NCBI GenBank assembly: GCA_963666145.1 | Contig: OY762614.1 | Span: 2,969,617-3,033,616, forward strand | Source: an uncultured Desulfobacter sp. | GTDB taxonomy: Bacteria; Desulfobacterota; Desulfobacteria; Desulfobacterales; Desulfobacteraceae | DNA length: 64,000 nt | Direction: 5' to 3' | Shown here: positions 2,072 to 39,992 of the stretch, piece after piece | How the letters are laid out: every line of letters begins with the position of its first letter | Numbering within the stretch: the first letter of the stretch is position 1 | Program-made: the position numbers and the translations under genes | Notes under the pieces: generated by a model | Told to the model about the DNA's origin: nothing | Databases searched by the model: none | What the model saw: the letters and a program-made list of their open reading frames with translations, nothing else

Positions 2072-2728
2072 TTATTTGGGGTATGCCATAAGCAGACGAT
2101 TTTTGGGTGTGATCTCACCGGGAATTTTTTTAGTCATCACTGTATATCCCTGGCAGGCCAGCTTGATAGCCCTTGTGGCATCCACGGCCAGGGGGCCGTC
2201 CATCCAACCGTCAAGCCCGCCTGTGTCACAACGTTCAAGATCATGGCAGCACGGCAGTACCGCAAGTTTTGCCCTGGCCGCCACAGCTTTTTCAATCACC
2301 GTATCAGTCAGCGTGCCGCAGGCATGTACAGAGACGACAATATCCCGGGAAGAGAGTGCCACCTGCTCAAGGGGCATCCGGTTAAAACAAATTTTATCCT
2401 TTAACCGGGGCCATCTCTCGATCAAATTTTGGGAGAGCACCGCTGCATTTTCCGGGATATGGGTATCAACGGCCAAGGCATTTTCAGAGGTATCATCTAA
2501 TAGTAGTAAGATATGGGATACCAGCCCGTGACCGCATGCCAGATCAACGATCCTGCCGCCACGAAAATGCCGTCTGATGCGCTTTGCCACCTCCCATGCT
2601 TCGTAAAGTTCCTTTCTGGGCAGCGTTTGGGACCGGCATACCGCACGTGCAATTTTATCAAACAGGGTATCCTTGGGAAACAACGCCTGCTGATGTATGG
2701 TGAGCCTGTTTTTTGAGGATTTTTTCAT
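2072..2728 (-). CDS. SAM-dependent methyltransferase (Methyltransf_32-like)
   Basis: Motif I VDLACGHG and VSVHACGTLTD; start moved to MKKSSK at 2728 because the upstream in-frame extension looks non-coding. Confidence 0.8.
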   Translation of the reverse strand: MKKSSKNRLTIHQQALFPKDTLFDKIARAVCRSQTLPRKELYEAWEVAKRIRRHFRGGRIVDLACGHGLVSHILLLLDDTSENALAVDTHIPENAAVLSQNLIERWPRLKDKICFNRMPLEQVALSSRDIVVSVHACGTLTDTVIEKAVAARAKLAVLPCCHDLERCDTGGLDGWMDGPLAVDATRAIKLACQGYTVMTKKIPGEITPKNRLLMAYPK

Positions 2729-2982
2729 ATTAAGACGCACAATACAAAGATAGATGTAAAAACACAAGGGCGCCGAACAGCATGTTTTTCCATGAAACCG
2801 GGTCGGCCAATGATTATTCTTGAATGAATTCCGGAAAGACGATAAATTTATATAGACATGGTTCCAGTCTACGACAGATTTTGAAAAAGCGGTTGCTGTT
2901 CTCGCAACTTTACCGTTGATCACTGTGATTGCTTTTTTTAATGATTGATCACCAGCCCCACCCCCATCGGATAAGGAGCGGC

Positions 2983-4203
2983 ATGGCTGAAAAAACAGAT
3001 CCCAAAAAACCGGAAGCCAACAGTCACGGCAAGGGCGGTCCCCAAATTGAGACAGGGGCTTTGCGCCTGCTGGGAAATGACGAGGTCTATGTCAGCCTTT
3101 TCAAGGAAAATTGTGCTGTCATGCTCATGGTTGATCCTGACAATTTAAATATCATTGACGCCAACCAAGCCGCCCTCCTTTTTTACGGCTGGACCCATGA
3201 GCAAATCATCCGGAAAAAGGCAACAGATATTAACAATATTAACGAAAGCGTACTGGTCCCGAAAATCAGGGAGGCCATGCATAAAAAAAACTCTCATTTT
3301 TTTACCAGCCACTGCATGGCCAATGGGACTATCCGGGATGTTGAAGTTTATGCAAGCCCCATTATTTTAAACGGGGAAAAACGTATCCATGCCATTATCC
3401 ATGATACCACCGAACGTAAAAAAGCAGCCAAGGCCCTTGCCCGGTCTGAACAGAAACTTGCCGAACAGGCCATACGCACAAATCATCTTGCCTCTCTGGG
3501 TGAACTTGCAGCCGGCGTGGCCCATGAGATTAACAATCCTGTGACCGGCATTATCAGTCTGGCAGAAGTCCTTATGGATAAATTTGCAGAAGATGAAAGG
3601 GAAAGAAAAATCCCTGAAATGATTATCCACGAAGGTGAGCGGATCAGCAAAATCGTAAAAAATCTGCTCTCCTTTGCCAAAGACAGAGACGATGATTTCA
3701 GGCCGGTCTGCGTAAAGGATGTGCTCAAACTGTCGGTCTCCCTTATGGAAAGACAGATTTTAAAGGACGGCATACATTTATCCATTCATCTTCCCCAACA
3801 GCCTTTGAGCGTCAATGGCCGAAGCCATGAACTCCAGCAGGTATTCATGAATATCATCAGCAATGGCCGTTATGCCATCAATGCCAGATACCCGGATCCG
3901 GATGAAAACAAAATATTTGAAATCCATGGAAAAATCCTGAAAATCCAAAAACAAGAGTATGTCCGGTTAATCTTCTTTGACAGGGGATCCGGCATTCCCT
4001 CTCCGCTTCTGGACAAAATAACAGCCCCGTTTTTTTCAACAAAACCCCATGACCAGGGAACAGGGCTTGGCTTGTCCATCAGCCATGGAATTATAGACAG
4101 CCACGGGGGAAGGCTTTGGTTTGAAAGCCTGGAAAACGAGTACACAAAGGTGATGGTTGATCTGCCCCTGAACATGGGCCGGCCTTTGGACGAAAGCATA
4201 TGA
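2983..4203 (+). CDS. PAS-domain sensor histidine kinase (NtrB-like)
   Basis: RBS AAGGAG before ATG 2983; PAS region, H-box LAAGVAHEINNP, N-box NIISNGRYA, G2 box GTGLGLSI. Confidence 0.92.
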   Translation: MAEKTDPKKPEANSHGKGGPQIETGALRLLGNDEVYVSLFKENCAVMLMVDPDNLNIIDANQAALLFYGWTHEQIIRKKATDINNINESVLVPKIREAMHKKNSHFFTSHCMANGTIRDVEVYASPIILNGEKRIHAIIHDTTERKKAAKALARSEQKLAEQAIRTNHLASLGELAAGVAHEINNPVTGIISLAEVLMDKFAEDERERKIPEMIIHEGERISKIVKNLLSFAKDRDDDFRPVCVKDVLKLSVSLMERQILKDGIHLSIHLPQQPLSVNGRSHELQQVFMNIISNGRYAINARYPDPDENKIFEIHGKILKIQKQEYVRLIFFDRGSGIPSPLLDKITAPFFSTKPHDQGTGLGLSISHGIIDSHGGRLWFESLENEYTKVMVDLPLNMGRPLDESI

Positions 4204-34138: not shown

Positions 34139-36170
34139 CATAAAAAAAATCAATGCGGGGCAGGTGGAAAAAATTCCGACATTGGCAGATCTCGCATTAA
34201 AGTATGGTACGATTTCTAAGGATCAGCATGCTCATTTGTTAAAGTTATTTGCTTTTAAACATGAGCGGGTTGGGTTTGAGGAACTGTTGCGTGATGAAGG
34301 GATGGCCACGGAGTATCAACTGGAATTACTTATGTTGATAAGGGAATATCGAATTGTACGCAAAAGCGGCGAAGAATTCGGTAAGATTGCAGTTGAAAAA
34401 GGCCTTGCGACCAAGGTTGATATTAACCAGGCATTGGCATTACAGAAAGATGAATTTAAAAAGTCCCGACATAAAAAACTTATCGGGGACATTCTTGTTG
34501 AAAACAGAATCTTAACGGTAAAACAAAAAGACCTGATACTTAAAGAGCAGGATTTGTTTAATCGAAAAGATTCTGACCCAATTAATGGAAAAAGCAAATC
34601 ACATGAAACAGAGGAAGAGAGCAGGGGCGGAGACGATGAAAAACAATCAGAAATAAGTGTTGTTGCAAGTTCAGATCATTTGTCGGCTTGGGTGGAAATA
34701 CACCGTTTTGTTGAAACCAGCATCACATTAAACCATGTGAAAGATGCTGTTATGAATGCTGGTATTGTTAATGGTGTTTACCCTGATGCTTTTATTCAAT
34801 GCTTTCTTGATGCGGGTGTTGATAAATTTCCTGTTGCCTGGGTGGATTGTAATGATGTGTTGGCCCAGCAATGCCGTCTTGCTGTCTATGTCGAAGAAGA
34901 AAACGGAAAATCCATTGAGAAAAAAAAAGGTGAAGTCCTTGCCGAACTATCCCGTGTCGCGAACACCGTTCAAATTCAAAATTTGTACGGAGAGCCTATA
35001 ACCGTTTCAGCCGAAAATGATCTGGTCGTCTCTTGCGGCGAACATACCAGATGGTCCAGGGACAAGTTAAAAATTCTTGCCGTAACTTCAGGACGCCCCG
35101 CATTTTCATTTACCCGAAATATGTTCATTCATCCAGTGGTGAATATCCTGGAAGATGCTGATTATCGTTTCGGTCCCATTGAGCCCTACGCTGATTTGTC
35201 AGTGTCCGGAAAAATTACCGGTGCGTATTCAATAACCGCAGGCAATATTAAAGCCGAGGAAATCCGGGGGGCAAATATAGATGCTTTGGGCGATGTTCAT
35301 GCACTGGTTGGTATTACGGAAGCAACGATCCGTACCCAGGGAGATGTGTATGCCCGCTACATTCATAACAGTACAATAGAAACCTTTGGTAATGTATATG
35401 TGGAAAATGAGATCATTGATACGCGGATCAGGTGCAGCGGAAAAATTGAAAGTCCAAAATGCCGGGTGATCTCGTCGAAAATTTATGCCAAGGGGGGGGG
35501 GCTTTTTTTAGGGGTGGGAAGTGATCGATCTAGACCAACGACGGTTGTTGCCGGATCAGAACACCATATCGTTGCCCTTGTTCAAAAAGTATTGGGGAAA
35601 ATGAATACGGTTCTTGGTAAATTAGAGGCACTTGAAGAAGAAAAGCGCGATCATGAATTTCAGGCTGAAAAAATTTTTAAGAAAATGATTGAACTTAAAA
35701 CCTTTCATGACAAGTCAAAGAAAAAAAAGGATACCTTGTTATCTGAACTTGAAAAAAAAAAGAAAGATATAAATAATAAAATTTTGACCAACATTCAAAA
35801 ATTGGTTTCAAGCTATGATAGACGAATGAATAGTTCTCTTGCATCGTTGAAATCGATGAATGTTTCAAAAAAAGCGCATGATTCAAGTGTGGTTGAACTG
35901 GATACAAAAATTACCATTGCGAAGGCCCAGGCAGAAAAAGAGATCCGTTCACATGAAAAAATCCTTTTTGCATATATGGAAAAATCAAAAGAAACCGCCG
36001 GCGTTCCGATGATTGAGATCAAAGGGCGTGCATATGCCGGCACCATGCTGGGTGGTGTTTATCGAATTTGTGCCTTAATGGACGATAAAACCGGTTTTAA
36101 GGTTGAAGAAGTTGTGCGTCAAAATCAAACTACTGAATTAAAATTTACGCCGCCCTTGCCGACATCATGA
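34122..36170 (+). CDS. FapA (DUF342) family protein with N-terminal MshEN-like repeats
   Basis: Beta-helical G-rich repeats (GDVHA..GI..A.I...GDVYARYI.NS.I...GNVYV), long coiled coil, C-terminal beta domain; N-terminal [FI]GxxxVxxG/R...Q repeats. Confidence 0.7.
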   Translation: MALKNDIKKINAGQVEKIPTLADLALKYGTISKDQHAHLLKLFAFKHERVGFEELLRDEGMATEYQLELLMLIREYRIVRKSGEEFGKIAVEKGLATKVDINQALALQKDEFKKSRHKKLIGDILVENRILTVKQKDLILKEQDLFNRKDSDPINGKSKSHETEEESRGGDDEKQSEISVVASSDHLSAWVEIHRFVETSITLNHVKDAVMNAGIVNGVYPDAFIQCFLDAGVDKFPVAWVDCNDVLAQQCRLAVYVEEENGKSIEKKKGEVLAELSRVANTVQIQNLYGEPITVSAENDLVVSCGEHTRWSRDKLKILAVTSGRPAFSFTRNMFIHPVVNILEDADYRFGPIEPYADLSVSGKITGAYSITAGNIKAEEIRGANIDALGDVHALVGITEATIRTQGDVYARYIHNSTIETFGNVYVENEIIDTRIRCSGKIESPKCRVISSKIYAKGGGLFLGVGSDRSRPTTVVAGSEHHIVALVQKVLGKMNTVLGKLEALEEEKRDHEFQAEKIFKKMIELKTFHDKSKKKKDTLLSELEKKKKDINNKILTNIQKLVSSYDRRMNSSLASLKSMNVSKKAHDSSVVELDTKITIAKAQAEKEIRSHEKILFAYMEKSKETAGVPMIEIKGRAYAGTMLGGVYRICALMDDKTGFKVEEVVRQNQTTELKFTPPLPTS

Positions 36171-36770
36171 GGATTTCAGATTGATATGAAATAAAGAAGC
36201 GTGGACTGCCCCTGAGGGTAAAAGCTTACTTTTTATCAGATGTACCTGGTCAACAGAAATTTTTAAGCGGTCTGTTTTTATTCCAATCGCTTTTTTTATC
36301 AGGCTTGGTTTTGAGCAATGGCGCACCCGGGATAGGGTGATGTGCGGTGAGAATCTTTTTTCTTTTGCAAGCTTGAGGTCTTTATTTAGTCTTGACTCTA
36401 TATCCTGCTGTAAAGTGAATAATTCCTGATTTGGTTTGTCCGGTCCAACCCAGATTATTTTGGGATGGTGTGCATCGGGAAAAACGCCAAGACGGTTAAA
36501 GGAAATATCAAAACTTGCCTTACCCGTAACCGCTTCAGAAAGTATTGATTTCATGTCGGGTAGTGTCTGTTCGGGGATTTCACCGAGAAATTTTAAAGTG
36601 AGATGAAAGTTGTCTGCCGCGGGCCATCCTGCATGGATGCCTGTGGCGCGAATATCGGTTTGGATTCGACGTAGTTGTGATTTGATCTGTTCGTCAAGAA
36701 GAATGGCAACAAAACACCTGATTTTTGCATTCACGTTTTGATTTTTATGAAAATTCAAGCGTCTCTCCAA
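36165..36770 (-). CDS. thpR: RNA 2',3'-cyclic phosphodiesterase (2H family)
   Basis: RCFVAI, FHLTLKFLG, FSPHITLSR. Confidence 0.92.
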   Translation of the reverse strand: MERRLNFHKNQNVNAKIRCFVAILLDEQIKSQLRRIQTDIRATGIHAGWPAADNFHLTLKFLGEIPEQTLPDMKSILSEAVTGKASFDISFNRLGVFPDAHHPKIIWVGPDKPNQELFTLQQDIESRLNKDLKLAKEKRFSPHITLSRVRHCSKPSLIKKAIGIKTDRLKISVDQVHLIKSKLLPSGAVHASLFHINLKSS

Positions 36771-36849: not shown

Positions 36850-37908
36850 CTAAAAGATGCGGGCATGAACCTTATCTATTTCCAGAGTGTCCACGCGTTC
36901 AATGGTAAAAGAGGTTTCTGGGTATTTTCGGGACAGCCGTTCGAGATTGGTTTTACGATCACCCTGAAGCCGGGATAAAGATCTCGGGTTGACTTGAAGC
37001 ACAATGCTTGTTTGTTCATTTGAGGTGCCAACACTTTTCCAACGACCTATAGCCGCATCAATATTATCACATGCCTGATCAAACATGAGAGCAGATAAAA
37101 CCAGATGGCCAAAGGCGGGGTGCCATGGCCCTGCAAGCATCTGTCTGGTATCTTCCATCATTTCTGTGGCCTGCAGTCCAATGCGTGCCACAGATACGCC
37201 TGCCCGCCTAAAAATTGTGACCATCTTTTTTGTCTGATCAACAGCCTGGTCAAGACTTAATGGTACGTAGCGTCCCGATTGGTACCAGTGAGCGAGTTTA
37301 GATCCGTGCAGCACCAGAAGTGGATAGATCCTGGCAAGATCCGGCTTGAGCTCTGCAAGCATTTGTGCTGTAAGAACGGATCCAGCATCGTCGTCTCCAG
37401 GTAGTCCAATCATCACCTGTATCCCGGTTTTAAGGTCGTTCTCCTTGAGTAAAGCAAGGGCGTTTCGTGTGTCTTCGCTGGTATGCCCCCTTTCTGCCAG
37501 GGCAAGCACACGATCATCCATGGATTGAACGCCTAACTCTACCGTATCAAGACCAAAGGGCCGGACAAGGTCTATGGTCTGGGGGGTGACGGTATCCGGC
37601 CGTGTGGAGCAACGAATGCCATGGATTTGTCCACGCCGGATCCACGGTTGTACCGCCTCTAATAGTCCAAGTATCCGCGATGTTTCAAGGCCAAGAAAAT
37701 TGCCTCCAAAAAAGGCCAGCTCAACCCGGGAACGATTTTTTTTAAATTGAAGATACGTTTGGATAACGTCATCAAGTCGGGATGTTTCATGTGAAATCGT
37801 CTGAACTTTCGAGGTCTGGTTCGCGATCAGGCGTTGGTTGCAGAAAATACATAGATGGGGACAGCCTTGGTGGGGAATAAAGAACGGAATTACCAGGGGC
37901 GGAGACAT
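36850..37908 (-). CDS. Radical SAM protein (Elp3/YhcC/HemN-like, rnc-associated type)
   Basis: GCPHLCIFCNQ (CxxxCxxC), FFGGNF, STRPD, ELGVQS, MIGLPGD, RIYP. Confidence 0.9.
   Translation of the reverse strand: MSPPLVIPFFIPHQGCPHLCIFCNQRLIANQTSKVQTISHETSRLDDVIQTYLQFKKNRSRVELAFFGGNFLGLETSRILGLLEAVQPWIRRGQIHGIRCSTRPDTVTPQTIDLVRPFGLDTVELGVQSMDDRVLALAERGHTSEDTRNALALLKENDLKTGIQVMIGLPGDDDAGSVLTAQMLAELKPDLARIYPLLVLHGSKLAHWYQSGRYVPLSLDQAVDQTKKMVTIFRRAGVSVARIGLQATEMMEDTRQMLAGPWHPAFGHLVLSALMFDQACDNIDAAIGRWKSVGTSNEQTSIVLQVNPRSLSRLQGDRKTNLERLSRKYPETSFTIERVDTLEIDKVHARIF
37783..37798. other. parS-like site TGTTTCATGTGAAATC (inside a CDS)
   Basis: 3 mismatches; same TTTCATGTGAAA core. Confidence 0.45.
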
Positions 37909-37914
37909 GACGGC

Positions 37915-39474
37915 TTAATCAAGATTGCGATGCAACATTGCCAGTGCTTTTCTGGCAGCATCTTGTTCAGCCGCTTTTTTGGTTTTTCCGGTACCCGTTG
38001 TGGTAATCGTATCCAGGTTCAGGCAGATTTCAAATGTTTTGTCATGGTCCGGACCCTTTTCCTGGGCAAGGGTGTAATATGGGGTTTTGCCAAAATGTTC
38101 CTGGGTAAATTCCTGGAGGCCGCTTTTGTAGTCTATAAAATCAGATGAGGCCAGAACTTGGTGTACGGGTTCGTCAAAAATGCGGTTCACCATGGTTTGA
38201 GCCCTGTCAAATCCGGCATCCAAGTATACCGCAGCCACCACGGCCTCAAAGGCATCTGACAGAATCGAATTTTTGTCACTGCCGCCCGAAAGCGCTTCGC
38301 CCTTTCCGAGTTTGATAAACCGCCCTAAATCAATGCTGCGTGCAATGTGCGCAAGGCCTGTTTCACTGACAAGATTCGAGCGCAGCCTGGAAAGATCGCC
38401 CTCATTTTTCATGGGATCTTTTTCCATGAGCAGATGCCCTACGCAGAGGCCTAAAACCGCATCGCCCAGGAACTCAAGACGTTCATTGTCTGAATCACAG
38501 GTGTTCTGATTTTCATTCAGATAGGAACGGTGGCACAGGGCGTTAAATAAAAAGGTCCGAGATTTAAACCGGTAATCAATATGTTGTTCCAGCAGATCCA
38601 AACGGGGATTTGCCTGGGCTTCCTGCAGTCGGTCACTTAATGCTTTGAAAACGGACATCGGTACATTCAGATCGCCTCTGCCACGGCCAAGATCCACACC
38701 TTTGTTAAATATGCCGTGAAAGTCGGTGCCCCCTGTTGCCACCAAACCTTTGCTGTTCACTATGTCAGACAGATGTTTTCTAAAGGCTGAATCATGTCCG
38801 GCATAGTAAACTTCAATGCCTGCAAGCCCGTCTTTGACCAGCATATTAACAAAGGTGTCCAGGTCATTGGGGTGCTGAAAATCAATAATCCCGGGATGGG
38901 CCAGGACCGGTAGGCCTCCTGCGTCAAGAATCAACCGGATAGCCTCTTTGCAGGATATTTTAAATTTTTCAACGTAGGCGGGTTTATTTTTGCCCAGGTA
39001 AAGGTCAAAGGCTTTGCGGAAATCAGATACGTAGCCTTTTTCCACGAGCAGTTCGGCAATATGGGGACGACCTGTCTGGCGGGCGCCAAAACGGTTTTTT
39101 ACCTCATCCAGGGTAATGTCAAATCCCAGATCATTGAGCTTTTCAATGATCCGGGGATTTCGGTTGGCCCTGGCCTCCGCCGCACATGACAAGGCATTAT
39201 TCAAACCACAGTCATAAACAGAGAATCCATATCCAAGCATATGAATGCTGCCCAGGGATTTGAATTCAGGCGGGGGTTCACAGGAAATCTCGACGCCGGT
39301 TATAAATTCAACCGGGTATGAATGAACGATATCTTTTATTTCCAGAATTCCGGCAATGGTATCGTGGTCAGTCAGTGCAACTGCCTCAATGCCGATATCT
39401 CTGGCCAAGTCAAGAATCTGTCTGGGCGTCAGGGAGCCGTCCGAGGCAGTGGAATGTGTGTGAAGATCAATCAA
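37915..39474 (-). CDS. rnc: PHP-domain (YciV/RNase AM-like) fused to ribonuclease III
   Basis: N-terminal DLHTHS, TDHDT, GVEIS, HMLGY, LAHP, GIEVY, GGTDFHG; C-terminal ALCHRSY, ERLEFLGDAVL, DAFEAVVAAVYLD and dsRBD (YKSGLQE...GPDHDKTF...KKAAEQDAA). Confidence 0.93.
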   Translation of the reverse strand: MIDLHTHSTASDGSLTPRQILDLARDIGIEAVALTDHDTIAGILEIKDIVHSYPVEFITGVEISCEPPPEFKSLGSIHMLGYGFSVYDCGLNNALSCAAEARANRNPRIIEKLNDLGFDITLDEVKNRFGARQTGRPHIAELLVEKGYVSDFRKAFDLYLGKNKPAYVEKFKISCKEAIRLILDAGGLPVLAHPGIIDFQHPNDLDTFVNMLVKDGLAGIEVYYAGHDSAFRKHLSDIVNSKGLVATGGTDFHGIFNKGVDLGRGRGDLNVPMSVFKALSDRLQEAQANPRLDLLEQHIDYRFKSRTFLFNALCHRSYLNENQNTCDSDNERLEFLGDAVLGLCVGHLLMEKDPMKNEGDLSRLRSNLVSETGLAHIARSIDLGRFIKLGKGEALSGGSDKNSILSDAFEAVVAAVYLDAGFDRAQTMVNRIFDEPVHQVLASSDFIDYKSGLQEFTQEHFGKTPYYTLAQEKGPDHDKTFEICLNLDTITTTGTGKTKKAAEQDAARKALAMLHRNLD

Positions 39475-39502
39475 AACCTGCTGTAAAGCCTATGAAGGAC
39501 AA

Positions 39503-39865
39503 TTAAATTCCCAGAGCCTTCTCCATACTTTCTTCTCGGGTTTTGCACTTGATGCATTGGGTTGTCACCGGCCGGGCCTTGAGTCTGGCGATGGAAATAT
39601 CTTCTTCGCAGGTTTCACAATGGCCAAAGGTGCCGTTTTCAATGCGTTCCAATGCGTTCTTAATTTTTTTGATTAATTTGTGTTCTCGGTCCCGGATGCG
39701 CAGTTCAAAACTTCTGTCCGCCTCATGGGAGGCCCGGTCCGTGGGGTCTGCAAAATTCTCTTTGGGCTGGGTCATGCCTGTGACGGTTGTGTCGGCATGG
39801 GAAAGCAACTCATTGAGCCGTTCAGTCAACAACGCTTTAAAAAATTCCAGATCTTCTTGTTTCAT
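39503..39865 (-). CDS. dksA: RNA polymerase-binding protein DksA
   Basis: DPTDRA coiled-coil tip; CETC...ARL.ARP....CIKC zinc finger. Confidence 0.95.
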   Translation of the reverse strand: MKQEDLEFFKALLTERLNELLSHADTTVTGMTQPKENFADPTDRASHEADRSFELRIRDREHKLIKKIKNALERIENGTFGHCETCEEDISIARLKARPVTTQCIKCKTREESMEKALGI

Positions 39866-39992
39866 AGTGTTGTCCTTCTCTTAAAGTAGATATTGCGCGA
39901 CACTAAAAAGTTCATTATTATATTTCTGTAAGTTATTACTGTAAAGCTTTTTTGTCAATATTCGGGTATTTGTTTATTGTGCCTGATCGAAA

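What the first reader, a model, noticed from the sequence alone, without database searches (positions are those of the whole stretch)
37915..39474. PHP (RNase AM/YciV-like) domain fused in frame to RNase III
Seen: a single 519-aa ORF with a complete PHP metal-binding set (HTH, DHD, E, H, H, E, DFH) followed by a complete RNase III (ERLEFLGD, DAFEA) and dsRBD. The junction (LSDRLQEAQANPRLDLLEQ, about 38590-38640) has no stop codon and no internal RBS plus start, so an assembly artefact seems unlikely. Established: in E. coli the PHP protein YciV/TrpH (RNase AM) is a 5'-3' exonuclease that trims rRNA 5' ends left by RNase III and other endonucleases. Inference: a two-in-one rRNA maturation enzyme that cuts the processing stem and trims the product; because RNase III dimerises, two exonuclease heads would flank the cut. 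I know of no characterised example.
Basis: partly seen in the sequence, partly recalled or inferred. Interest (0 to 1): 0.8.

Follow-up and report, generated by a model that had tools for sequence, protein, structure and literature searches.

The report
PHP exonuclease fused to RNase III
This Desulfobacter-type sulfate reducer really does make one protein that joins an RNase AM-like RNA-end-trimming enzyme to its only RNase III, but a 2020 paper already noted this fusion with the same ribosomal-RNA idea, and its activity is still untested.

Summary
Window 37915-39474 (minus strand, TTG start) is one 519-aa ORF. It holds a complete COG0613/TrpH-YciV-type PHP phosphoesterase (residues 1-~272), a short helical linker, and a full class-1 RNase III with dsRBD. 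All catalytic residues of both enzymes are invariant in 39 fused homologues. It is the genome's only RNase III and its closest RNase AM homologue.

The fusion is not an artefact. All 16 sampled genomes of the family have it, as do members of at least 8 other families of the order (Desulfobacter, Desulfobacula, Desulfotignum, Desulfamplus, Desulfatibacillum).

In 121 of 146 genomes of the order the PHP gene lies directly upstream of rnc, inside a conserved dksA-PHP-rnc-radical-SAM operon. In 74 genomes from the rest of the phylum the two genes are never adjacent. Fusion needs only the loss of one stop codon.

Jain 2020 (NAR 48:5616) already stated both the fusion and the idea in one sentence. 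A housekeeping role as pAp phosphatase or nanoRNase is not excluded. Verdict: real, already noted, uncharacterised, moderate interest.

The parts
37915..39474 (-). Whole fused gene: PHP-RNase III, 519 aa, TTG start at 39474-39472, TAA stop at 37917-37915
   Evidence: Single open frame. It is the only RNase III in the 6.32-Mb genome.
38659..39474 (-). PHP (COG0613, TrpH/YciV/Cv1693-type) phosphoesterase domain, residues 1-272. Trinuclear metal site: H5 H7 D12 H37 E62 H78 H193 D251 H253. 5'-phosphate pocket: R102 R105 R136 H138.
   Evidence: NCBIfam NF041577 175.6 bits and NF047791 154.8 bits over residues 2-264. PDB sequence matches to 3e0f, 9etk, 2yb1 and 7ug9, with the ligands aligned. These residues are invariant in 39 fused homologues. 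The AF2 model matches 9etk (TM 0.78) and 7ug9 (TM 0.86).
38602..38658 (-). Junction, residues 273-291: the C-terminal helix of the PHP protein (273-287), then a turn of about 4 residues (NPRL) leading into the first RNase III helix (292-299)
   Evidence: AF2 secondary structure and pLDDT of 87-93 across the junction. Only residues about 284-290 vary within the family. In split relatives, the stop codon and the rnc ATG lie at this position.
38146..38601 (-). RNase III catalytic domain, residues 292-443. Signature NERLEFLGD. Acidic residues E331 E334 D338 E358 D407 E410.
   Evidence: PF14622 128.6 bits and TIGR02191 238.9 bits, above the cut-off. Residues invariant. PDB 1o0w E = 2.3e-48. Foldseek matches to 7r97 and 2ez6.
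37927..38130 (-). dsRNA-binding domain, residues 449-516
   Evidence: PF00035 56.6 bits. An alpha-beta-beta-beta-alpha fold in the AF2 model.
39503..39865 (-). dksA, first gene of the operon. Its stop lies 28 nt before the TTG of the fusion.
   Evidence: TIGR02420 140.3 bits against a cut-off of 115.5. Present directly upstream of PHP in 40 of 40 related loci.
39917..39945 (-). Near-consensus sigma-70-type promoter (TTTACA-17-TATAAT, 11 of 12) upstream of dksA
   Evidence: This is a consensus scan only. No terminator-like site of weight lies between dksA and the fusion.
36850..37908 (-). ELP3/MnmL-like radical SAM gene without a GNAT domain (Radical_SAM + Radical_SAM_C). Its ATG lies 6 nt after the rnc stop.
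   Evidence: Present directly downstream of rnc in 34 of 40 related loci.
36165..36770 (-). ThpR/LigT RNA 2',3'-cyclic phosphodiesterase, next gene on the same strand
   Evidence: TIGR02258 138.2 bits against a cut-off of 65.7. Not found in the 1.5-kb flanks of the related loci, so operon membership is uncertain.

Best explanation
The gene encodes a bifunctional ribonuclease. Its C-terminal half is an ordinary, catalytically complete class-1 RNase III with a dsRBD. RNase III dimerises and cuts double-stranded RNA, above all the long leader-trailer helices that flank 16S and 23S rRNA, leaving 5'-monophosphate ends. Its N-terminal half is a complete COG0613 PHP phosphoesterase of the RNase AM/TrpH/Cv1693 type, with a trinuclear metal centre and a 5'-phosphate pocket.

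The inferred mechanism is as follows. The PHP half takes the 5'-monophosphorylated products of the RNase III cut. These are either the few residual nucleotides on pre-rRNA 5' ends or the short fragments of excised spacer. It removes nucleotides in the 5'-to-3' direction. Because the linker is very short and helical, each RNase III dimer would carry two exonuclease heads held close to the cleavage valley.

The fusion arose from a tightly coupled gene pair, PHP directly upstream of rnc. That pair is a hallmark of the order Desulfobacterales and sits in a dksA-PHP-rnc-radical-SAM operon. Fusion required only the loss of one stop codon.

Shown here: the gene structure, the domain identities, the intact active sites, the conservation, the synteny and the existence of RNase III substrates. 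Inferred, not shown: the exonuclease activity, the hand-over of substrates and the role in rRNA maturation.
For: The ORF and its domains:
- ORF and domain matches.
- All metal ligands, the phosphate-pocket arginines and the six RNase III acidic residues are invariant in 39 fused proteins at 58-90% identity.
- These residues align with the ligands of Cv1693, including R99, R102 and R134, and with RNase AM.
- The AF2 model has pLDDT 86.7 and pTM 0.79, with a confident helical junction. Foldseek matches the PHP half to V. cholerae RNase AM 9etk (TM 0.78), E. coli RNase AM 7ug9 (0.86) and Cv1693 (0.78). It matches the other half to RNase III-dsRNA complexes.

Place in the genome:
- It is the sole RNase III.
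- It is the best RNase AM homologue in the genome. The only other candidate is a more distant paralog.

Linkage across genomes:
- In 121 of 146 genomes of the order that have RNase III, PHP lies immediately upstream of rnc on the same strand.
- In 74 genomes of other orders of the phylum, both genes exist but are never adjacent.
- True single-ORF fusions were verified in 13 of 146 genomes, in 8 families, and in 16 of 16 genomes of the window's own family.
- In 15 more genomes the two genes share one reading frame and are separated by 1-3 stop codons, 11 by exactly one.
- The operon partners are conserved: dksA in 40 of 40 loci and the radical SAM gene in 34 of 40.

Substrates:
- The genome's 23S genes are flanked by a near-perfect duplex of about 170 nt (dG -163 kcal/mol) that runs into the mature ends. 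The 16S flanks also pair (dG -81).

Established knowledge:
- E. coli RNase AM trims the 5' ends of 23S, 16S and 5S rRNA downstream of the RNase III cut, and it acts on 5'-phosphorylated RNA (PMC7261194, citing Ghodge & Raushel 2015).
Against: - No enzymatic or in vivo data exist for any member of the fusion family.
- The PHP domain falls below the curated cut-offs of both RNase RNM (154.8 against 375 bits) and the pAp phosphatase (175.6 against 400 bits). It scores slightly better for the phosphatase.
- Characterised RNase AM enzymes prefer pAp and very short single-stranded 5'-P oligonucleotides (PMC11528712). The 5' end left by RNase III is still base-paired.
- In about 90% of genomes of the order the two proteins are separate, so covalent coupling is not required.
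- The genome also has RNase J, another 5'-3' exonuclease.
- The genome has no CysQ or Orn above cut-off, so the PHP domain may be needed for housekeeping chemistry.
- The AF2 model is a monomer. The geometry of the dimer was not modelled.
Confidence: 0.6

Rival explanations
1. Housekeeping PHP enzyme. The N-terminal domain is mainly the cell's 3',5'-bisphosphonucleotide (pAp) phosphatase and/or its nanoRNase (diribonuclease). It sits next to, or fused to, rnc only because both are constitutive RNA-metabolism genes in one operon. There is no direct hand-over of RNase III products.
For: - The best NCBIfam score is to the pAp phosphatase equivalog (175.6 bits), above the RNase RNM score of 154.8.
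- Cv1693 (2yb1) is as close as RNase AM in both sequence and fold.
- The genome has no CysQ above cut-off (98.6 against 228.8 bits) and no Orn.
- Only a weak NrnA-like DHHA1 hit was found.
- RNase AM orthologues can replace Orn as a diribonuclease (PMC11528712).
- Most genomes of the order keep the two genes separate.
Against: - An order-wide (121 of 146), tightly coupled PHP-rnc pair with several fusions is hard to explain without a shared pathway.
- The pair is embedded with dksA, not with sulfur-assimilation or CoA genes.
- Elsewhere in the phylum the same PHP orthologue is unlinked to rnc. The linkage is therefore a derived, retained trait.
- The two roles are not mutually exclusive.
Confidence: 0.25
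2. Dual products. The fused ORF also yields a free RNase III by internal initiation at ATG M273 or TTG L292. If so, the fusion protein is only part of the RNase III pool, and the covalent link matters little.
For: In-frame start-capable codons lie at M273 and L292, just where rnc starts in split relatives.
Against: - There is no Shine-Dalgarno-like sequence at a workable distance from either codon.
- The junction is a confidently predicted continuous helix-turn-helix.
- Fusion is fixed in 16 of 16 genomes of the family.
Confidence: 0.08
3. Artefact or decaying gene. The single ORF would be an assembly or frameshift error joining two genes, or one of the two domains would be catalytically dead.
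For: The two genes are separate in most relatives, sometimes parted by only one stop codon. A single sequencing error could therefore mimic a fusion.
Against: - The same 519-aa architecture is found in more than 120 independent clusters, including complete genomes of Desulfobacter hydrogenophilus, D. postgatei and Desulfobacula toluolica.
- It is present in 16 of 16 family genomes.
- Logan contigs match the junction exactly.
- Every catalytic residue of both domains is invariant.
Confidence: 0.01

Closest known systems
'RNase AM paralog fused to RNase III' in delta-proteobacteria, mentioned by Jain 2020 (Nucleic Acids Res 48:5616, PMC7261194, Discussion)
   Same: This is the same protein family: an N-terminal YciV/TrpH-type PHP domain joined to a full RNase III in Desulfobacterales. 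The functional idea is also the same, namely several rRNA-processing steps in one enzyme.
   Different: The paper gives one sentence, with no data, distribution or characterisation.
- Fusion is fixed in the Desulfobacter family (16 of 16 sampled genomes).
- The PHP-rnc adjacency is order-wide.
- The pair lies in a dksA-PHP-rnc-rSAM operon.
- Fusion arises by loss of a stop codon.
- The junction is short and structured.
E. coli / V. cholerae RNase AM (YciV/TrpH; PDB 7UG9, 9ETK)
   Same: It has the same PHP fold, metal ligands and 5'-phosphate pocket. RNase AM is a 5'-3' exonuclease on 5'-P RNA that finishes the 5' ends of 23S, 16S and 5S rRNA after RNase III.
   Different: - Identity is only about 30%.
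- The score is below the RNase RNM equivalog cut-off (154.8 against 375 bits).
- RNase AM is a stand-alone protein whose gene is not linked to rnc in E. coli.
- The activity of the fused domain is untested.
Cv1693 of Chromobacterium violaceum (PDB 2YB1/2YB4), a 3',5'-nucleotide bisphosphate (pAp) phosphatase of COG0613
   Same: The sequence and fold distances are the same as to RNase AM (104 bits; TM 0.78). R99, R102 and R134 of its AMP 5'-phosphate site align with R102, R105 and R136 here.
   Different: - The score is below the NF041577 cut-off (175.6 against 400 bits).
- Cv1693 is stand-alone and acts on mononucleotides and very short oligonucleotides.
- Nothing links it to RNase III.
Bacterial class-1 RNase III (E. 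coli Rnc, A. aeolicus and T. maritima RNase III; PDB 7R97, 2EZ6, 1O0W)
   Same: The C-terminal 225 residues are a typical member. They score above the TIGR02191 cut-off and carry the signature motif, all the catalytic acids and a dsRBD.
   Different: It carries a 290-residue N-terminal enzyme domain. Its operon context is dksA-PHP-rnc-rSAM, not rnc-era-recO.

Membership tests
Class-1 bacterial RNase III (TIGR02191) | Whole-domain HMM score above the curated equivalog cut-off | tested here: met
   238.9 bits against a cut-off of 166.25, residues 295-512
Class-1 bacterial RNase III (TIGR02191) | Signature motif ERLEFLGD and the catalytic acidic residues (E. coli E38, E41, D45, E65, D114, E117) | tested here: met
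   NERLEFLGD at 330-338. E331, E334, D338, E358, D407 and E410 are invariant in 39 homologues. They were aligned to 1o0w, 3n3w and 2a11. The E. coli numbering is from memory.
Class-1 bacterial RNase III (TIGR02191) | Single C-terminal dsRBD | tested here: met
   PF00035 56.6 bits at residues 449-514. The fold is seen in the AF2 model.
Class-1 bacterial RNase III (TIGR02191) | Homodimeric, Mg-dependent dsRNA cleavage leaving 5'-P ends and 2-nt 3' overhangs | not testable with these tools
   This is biochemistry. Only a monomer model could be made.
RNase AM / RNase RNM (NF047791; E. coli YciV) | Equivalog HMM score above the curated cut-off | tested here: not met
   154.8 bits against a cut-off of 375. 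It is a homologue, not a demonstrated orthologue.
RNase AM / RNase RNM (NF047791; E. coli YciV) | PHP fold with a complete trinuclear metal site and a 5'-phosphate-binding pocket | tested here: met
   H5, H7, D12, H37, E62, H78, H193, D251, H253, R102, R105, R136 and H138 are invariant. They align to 9etk, 7ug9 and 2yb1. TM is 0.78-0.86.
RNase AM / RNase RNM (NF047791; E. coli YciV) | 5'-3' exoribonuclease activity on 5'-monophosphorylated RNA, and rRNA 5'-end maturation in vivo | not testable with these tools
No publication on the fused protein was found.
3',5'-nucleoside bisphosphate phosphatase, PHP type (NF041577; Cv1693) | Equivalog HMM score above the curated cut-off | tested here: not met
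   175.6 bits against a cut-off of 400
PHP-RNase III fusion family of Desulfobacterales (Jain 2020 mention) | One ORF with an N-terminal COG0613 PHP domain followed by RNase III and a dsRBD, in a Desulfobacterales genome | tested here: met
   Identity is 87-91% to the Desulfobacter hydrogenophilus and D. postgatei proteins of identical length. 16 of 16 genomes of the family have it.

The most novel reading that the evidence does not exclude
In Desulfobacterales, RNase III and the COG0613 PHP enzyme form an obligate two-enzyme machine. The link is covalent in Desulfobacteraceae and several other families, and non-covalent but translationally coupled in the rest. The machine would hand 5'-monophosphate ends made by RNase III directly to a 5'-3' exonuclease.

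The whole module is expressed from a DksA-headed operon, together with an ELP3-like radical SAM enzyme, as a lineage-specific ribosome-biogenesis unit. If so, the fused protein would be a ready-made system for seeing how endonucleolytic and exonucleolytic rRNA maturation are physically coupled. It might also carry out the removal of the first nucleotides after the RNase III cut, a step that Jain 2020 left unassigned in E. coli.
Probability: 0.3. Interest if true: 0.55.

Novelty: already known. Interest (0 to 1): 0.3.

Why it matters
A natural fusion is strong genomic evidence that two enzymes act in one pathway. Here it supports the view that RNase AM-type PHP exonucleases are the dedicated partners of RNase III in rRNA 5'-end maturation. 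So far that role has been shown only in E. coli.

The fused 57-kDa protein would be a convenient object for biochemistry and structural work on coupled endo- and exonucleolytic processing. The order-wide dksA-PHP-rnc-rSAM operon also points to an uncharacterised radical SAM enzyme as a further candidate ribosome or RNA maturation factor.

As a discovery its value is limited. The fusion and the hypothesis were already published in one sentence, the proteins are annotated in public databases, and nothing here tests activity.

Tried and rejected
1. An apparent second fusion, RNase III + radical SAM in a 550-aa frame in G123 (L033). It is an artefact. A run of N between the two genes is read as X.

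2. A 670-aa open frame around rnc in G171. It is a chance open frame in a very GC-rich genome, and the real gene starts at an internal ATG. The 'open_frame_aa' values of G087, G109, G118, G092 and G127 are likewise overlapping frames, not fusions.

3. Reverse-order (RNase III then PHP) fusions, suspected from two-stretch hits P0129, P0166, P0231 and P0136. These are tandem RNase III duplications, not PHP fusions.

4. Counting independent fusion events on a tree. The best tree needs 7 changes, but deep nodes are unresolved and the AU test does not reject a single fused clade (p = 0.34). The argument for several events therefore rests on two things: both states occur within GTDB families f6 and f73, and the linkers are unrelated. 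It is not proven.

5. The genome-contig scan with the fusion alignment. It was swamped by the universal NERLEFLGD motif and added only three named loci: Desulfamplus and Desulfatibacillum (fused), and Desulfatitalea (split by one stop).

6. Literature searches for a characterised PHP-RNase III protein found nothing beyond Jain 2020.

7. RNA evidence. Only two short exact-match contigs turned up, in a rhizosphere metatranscriptome. That is too little to say anything about the transcript's structure.

Full report
**1. The observation**

The ORF listing and translate show one ORF on the minus strand, 37915..39474, encoding 519 aa with a TTG start. The open frame extends only five codons upstream of the TTG (524-aa frame). 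Homologues begin at the same position with M-I-D-L-H, so the start is sound.

Pfam finds PHP (residues 3-125), Ribonucleas_3_3 (308-432), Ribonuclease_3 and dsrm (449-514). NCBIfam puts residues 295-512 above the RNase III equivalog cut-off (TIGR02191, 238.9 against 166.25 bits). It matches residues 2-264 to the two COG0613 equivalogs, the PHP-type pAp phosphatase (NF041577, 175.6 bits, cut-off 400) and RNase RNM, which is RNase AM (NF047791, 154.8 bits, cut-off 375). Both are below cut-off.

Two in-frame start-capable codons lie nearby (ATG M273, TTG L292), but neither has a usable Shine-Dalgarno sequence.

**2. It is real**

A search of 5.8 billion proteins returned more than 120 clusters with the same four Pfam domains and nearly the same length, at 58-91% identity. 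They include proteins from complete genomes of Desulfobacter hydrogenophilus, D. postgatei and Desulfobacula toluolica, annotated simply as 'ribonuclease III'. Logan contigs of three public runs reproduce the junction with no differences and no indels in the ORF.

In an alignment of 39 fused proteins, these residues are invariant:
- the nine PHP metal ligands (H5, H7, D12, H37, E62, H78, H193, D251, H253);
- the phosphate-pocket residues (R102, R105, R136, H138);
- the six RNase III acidic residues (E331, E334, D338, E358, D407, E410).

The PHP residues align with the ligands of Cv1693 and with its R99, R102 and R134, and with V. cholerae and E. coli RNase AM.

An AlphaFold2 model built on that alignment has mean pLDDT 86.7 and pTM 0.79. 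The junction is confident (pLDDT 87-93): a helix at 273-287, a four-residue turn, then a helix at 292-299. Foldseek matches the N-terminal half to V. cholerae RNase AM (9etk, TM 0.78), Cv1693 (2yb1, 0.78), BAD_1165 (3e0f, 0.77) and E. coli RNase AM (7ug9, 0.86). It matches the C-terminal half to RNase III-dsRNA complexes (7r97, 2ez6, 2nug). No PDB entry holds both domains.

**3. Place in the genome**

The genome is one contig of 6.32 Mb.
- It has a single RNase III, the fusion.
- The fused PHP domain is its best RNase AM homologue. A second PHP paralog (C1:5379816-5380634) is much more distant from RNase AM and Cv1693, at 56 against 111 bits to 9etk.
- RNase J is present.
- No CysQ and no Orn reach their cut-offs.
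- Only a weak NrnA-like DHHA1 hit exists.

The fusion lies in a same-strand string. DksA (39503-39865) ends 28 nt before the TTG. An ELP3/MnmL-like radical SAM gene (36850-37908) begins 6 nt after the rnc stop. ThpR (36165-36770) follows. A near-consensus sigma-70 promoter lies upstream of dksA at 39945-39917.

**4. Distribution**

I searched 151 genomes of the same GTDB order, both with the protein and with PF14622.
- 146 genomes have RNase III, always in one copy.
- In 121 of them the PHP gene lies immediately upstream on the same strand. The distance from the PHP start to the RNase III domain start is 889-1279 nt, against 921 nt here.
- Most of the remainder are fragmented assemblies with the two genes on different contigs.

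ORF-level inspection of 40 loci sorted them as follows.
- 12 loci are true single-ORF fusions. With the window's genome that makes 13 of 146, in 8 GTDB families.
- 15 genomes have the two genes in the same frame, separated by one to three stop codons (11 by exactly one). In these, rnc has its own ATG 2-20 codons later.
- The rest overlap or lie within about 150 nt of each other.

A further sample shows the fusion in 16 of 16 genomes of the window's own family. Three of these carry an insertion of about 30-40 aa in the PHP domain, which was verified as a single ORF in a Desulfamplus MAG. Both states occur inside families f6 and f73.

In 74 genomes from about 50 other families of the phylum, the PHP orthologue (41-46% identity) and rnc both exist but are never adjacent.

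In a library of 1.84 billion representatives at 50% identity, only about five clusters have this architecture.

The linkers of different families are unrelated in sequence and length. That fits several independent stop-codon losses. However, the tree of the concatenated domains is unresolved at depth, and an AU test does not reject a single fused clade.

dksA precedes PHP in 40 of 40 loci, and the radical SAM gene follows rnc in 34 of 40.

**5. Substrates**

The genome has six rRNA operons. In the one examined:
- 23S is flanked by a near-perfect leader-trailer duplex of about 170 nt (dG -163 kcal/mol) that runs into the mature termini;
- the 16S flanks also pair (dG -81).

These are classical RNase III substrates. 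Cleaving them would leave 5'-monophosphate ends a few nucleotides from the mature 5' ends, plus many short 5'-P spacer fragments.

**6. What is known**

Jain 2020 showed that E. coli RNase AM (YciV), a 5'-3' exonuclease, matures the 5' ends of 5S, 23S and 16S rRNA downstream of RNase III.

RNase AM also prefers pAp and very short oligonucleotides, and can act as a diribonuclease (PMC11528712). No paper characterising the fused protein was found.

Earlier agents of this scan reached the same verdict on orthologues in other genomes. I read those notes only after reaching my own conclusion.

**7. Interpretation**

Best-supported reading (about 0.6): the protein is a bifunctional enzyme in which RNase III makes the cut, and the tethered PHP domain removes nucleotides from the resulting 5'-monophosphate ends or spacer fragments. 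The structure, conservation and synteny are shown here. The activity and the hand-over of substrates are inferred.

Main rival (about 0.25, and not exclusive): the PHP domain is chiefly the cell's pAp phosphatase or nanoRNase. This is supported by its slightly better phosphatase score and by the absence of CysQ and Orn. It is weakened by the order-specific, tightly retained linkage to rnc and dksA.

The artefact and dead-domain readings are refuted.

**8. Verdict**

The fusion is already known in the sense that it has been mentioned and annotated, but it has never been characterised.

- fusion is fixed in the Desulfobacter family;
- the PHP-rnc adjacency is order-wide (83% of genomes);
- the adjacency is absent elsewhere in the phylum;
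- fusion arises by the loss of one stop codon;
- the pair lies in a conserved dksA-PHP-rnc-rSAM operon;
- the junction is short and structured.

Interest: 0.3.

Noticed in passing
window 36850-39945 (minus strand): dksA, the PHP::rnc fusion and an ELP3/MnmL-like radical SAM gene (Radical_SAM + Radical_SAM_C, no GNAT domain) form a tight string behind a near-consensus sigma-70 promoter. Across 40 loci of the order, dksA is present in 40 and the radical SAM gene in 34. The radical SAM protein is below every NCBIfam cut-off, so it is an uncharacterised candidate RNA or ribosome maturation factor.
   Followed up: partly
window 36165-36770 (minus strand): A ThpR/LigT RNA 2',3'-cyclic phosphodiesterase gene lies directly downstream of the radical SAM gene on the same strand. 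It is another RNA-end-processing enzyme in the neighbourhood. It was not seen in the short flanks of the related loci.
   Followed up: partly
own genome C1:2825200-2832400 (L138), outside the window: The rRNA operon has no tRNA in the 408-nt 16S-23S spacer, and tRNA-Ile(GAT) lies after 5S. 23S is flanked by an unusually long, near-perfect leader-trailer duplex of about 170 nt (dG -163 kcal/mol). The genome has six rRNA operons.
   Followed up: partly
P0239 (representative protein library, no genomic context): A 509-aa protein joins a MazG nucleotide pyrophosphohydrolase domain to RNase III and a dsRBD. It is another phosphohydrolase-RNase III fusion, unrelated to the PHP one.
   Followed up: no
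P0129, P0166, P0231, P0136 (representative protein library): These are proteins of 480-605 aa with two or three tandem RNase III domains (with dsRBDs) in one chain, a Dicer/Drosha-like intramolecular arrangement. Their organisms are unknown.
   Followed up: no
G230, G239, G248 (genus g3 of the window's family); L046 1470-3159 (Desulfamplus sp. MAG): In one genus, the fused protein carries an extra 30-40 residues inserted in the PHP domain, at about residue 200 of the window protein.
   Followed up: partly
L033 (G123:C41), 2400-4050: The apparent 550-aa RNase III + radical SAM open frame is produced by a run of N between the two genes. It is an assembly gap, not a fusion.
   Followed up: yes
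own genome C1:5379816-5380634 (L003 1483-2412): A second, divergent COG0613-like PHP paralog of 309 aa lies here. It is 32% identical to the fused domain, with about 92 bits to NF041577 and 56 bits to 9etk. Orthologues of it exist across the phylum. Its function is unknown.
   Followed up: partly
P0268 (representative protein library): A 494-aa protein joins a HAD-family hydrolase domain to a COG0613-type PHP domain.
   Followed up: no
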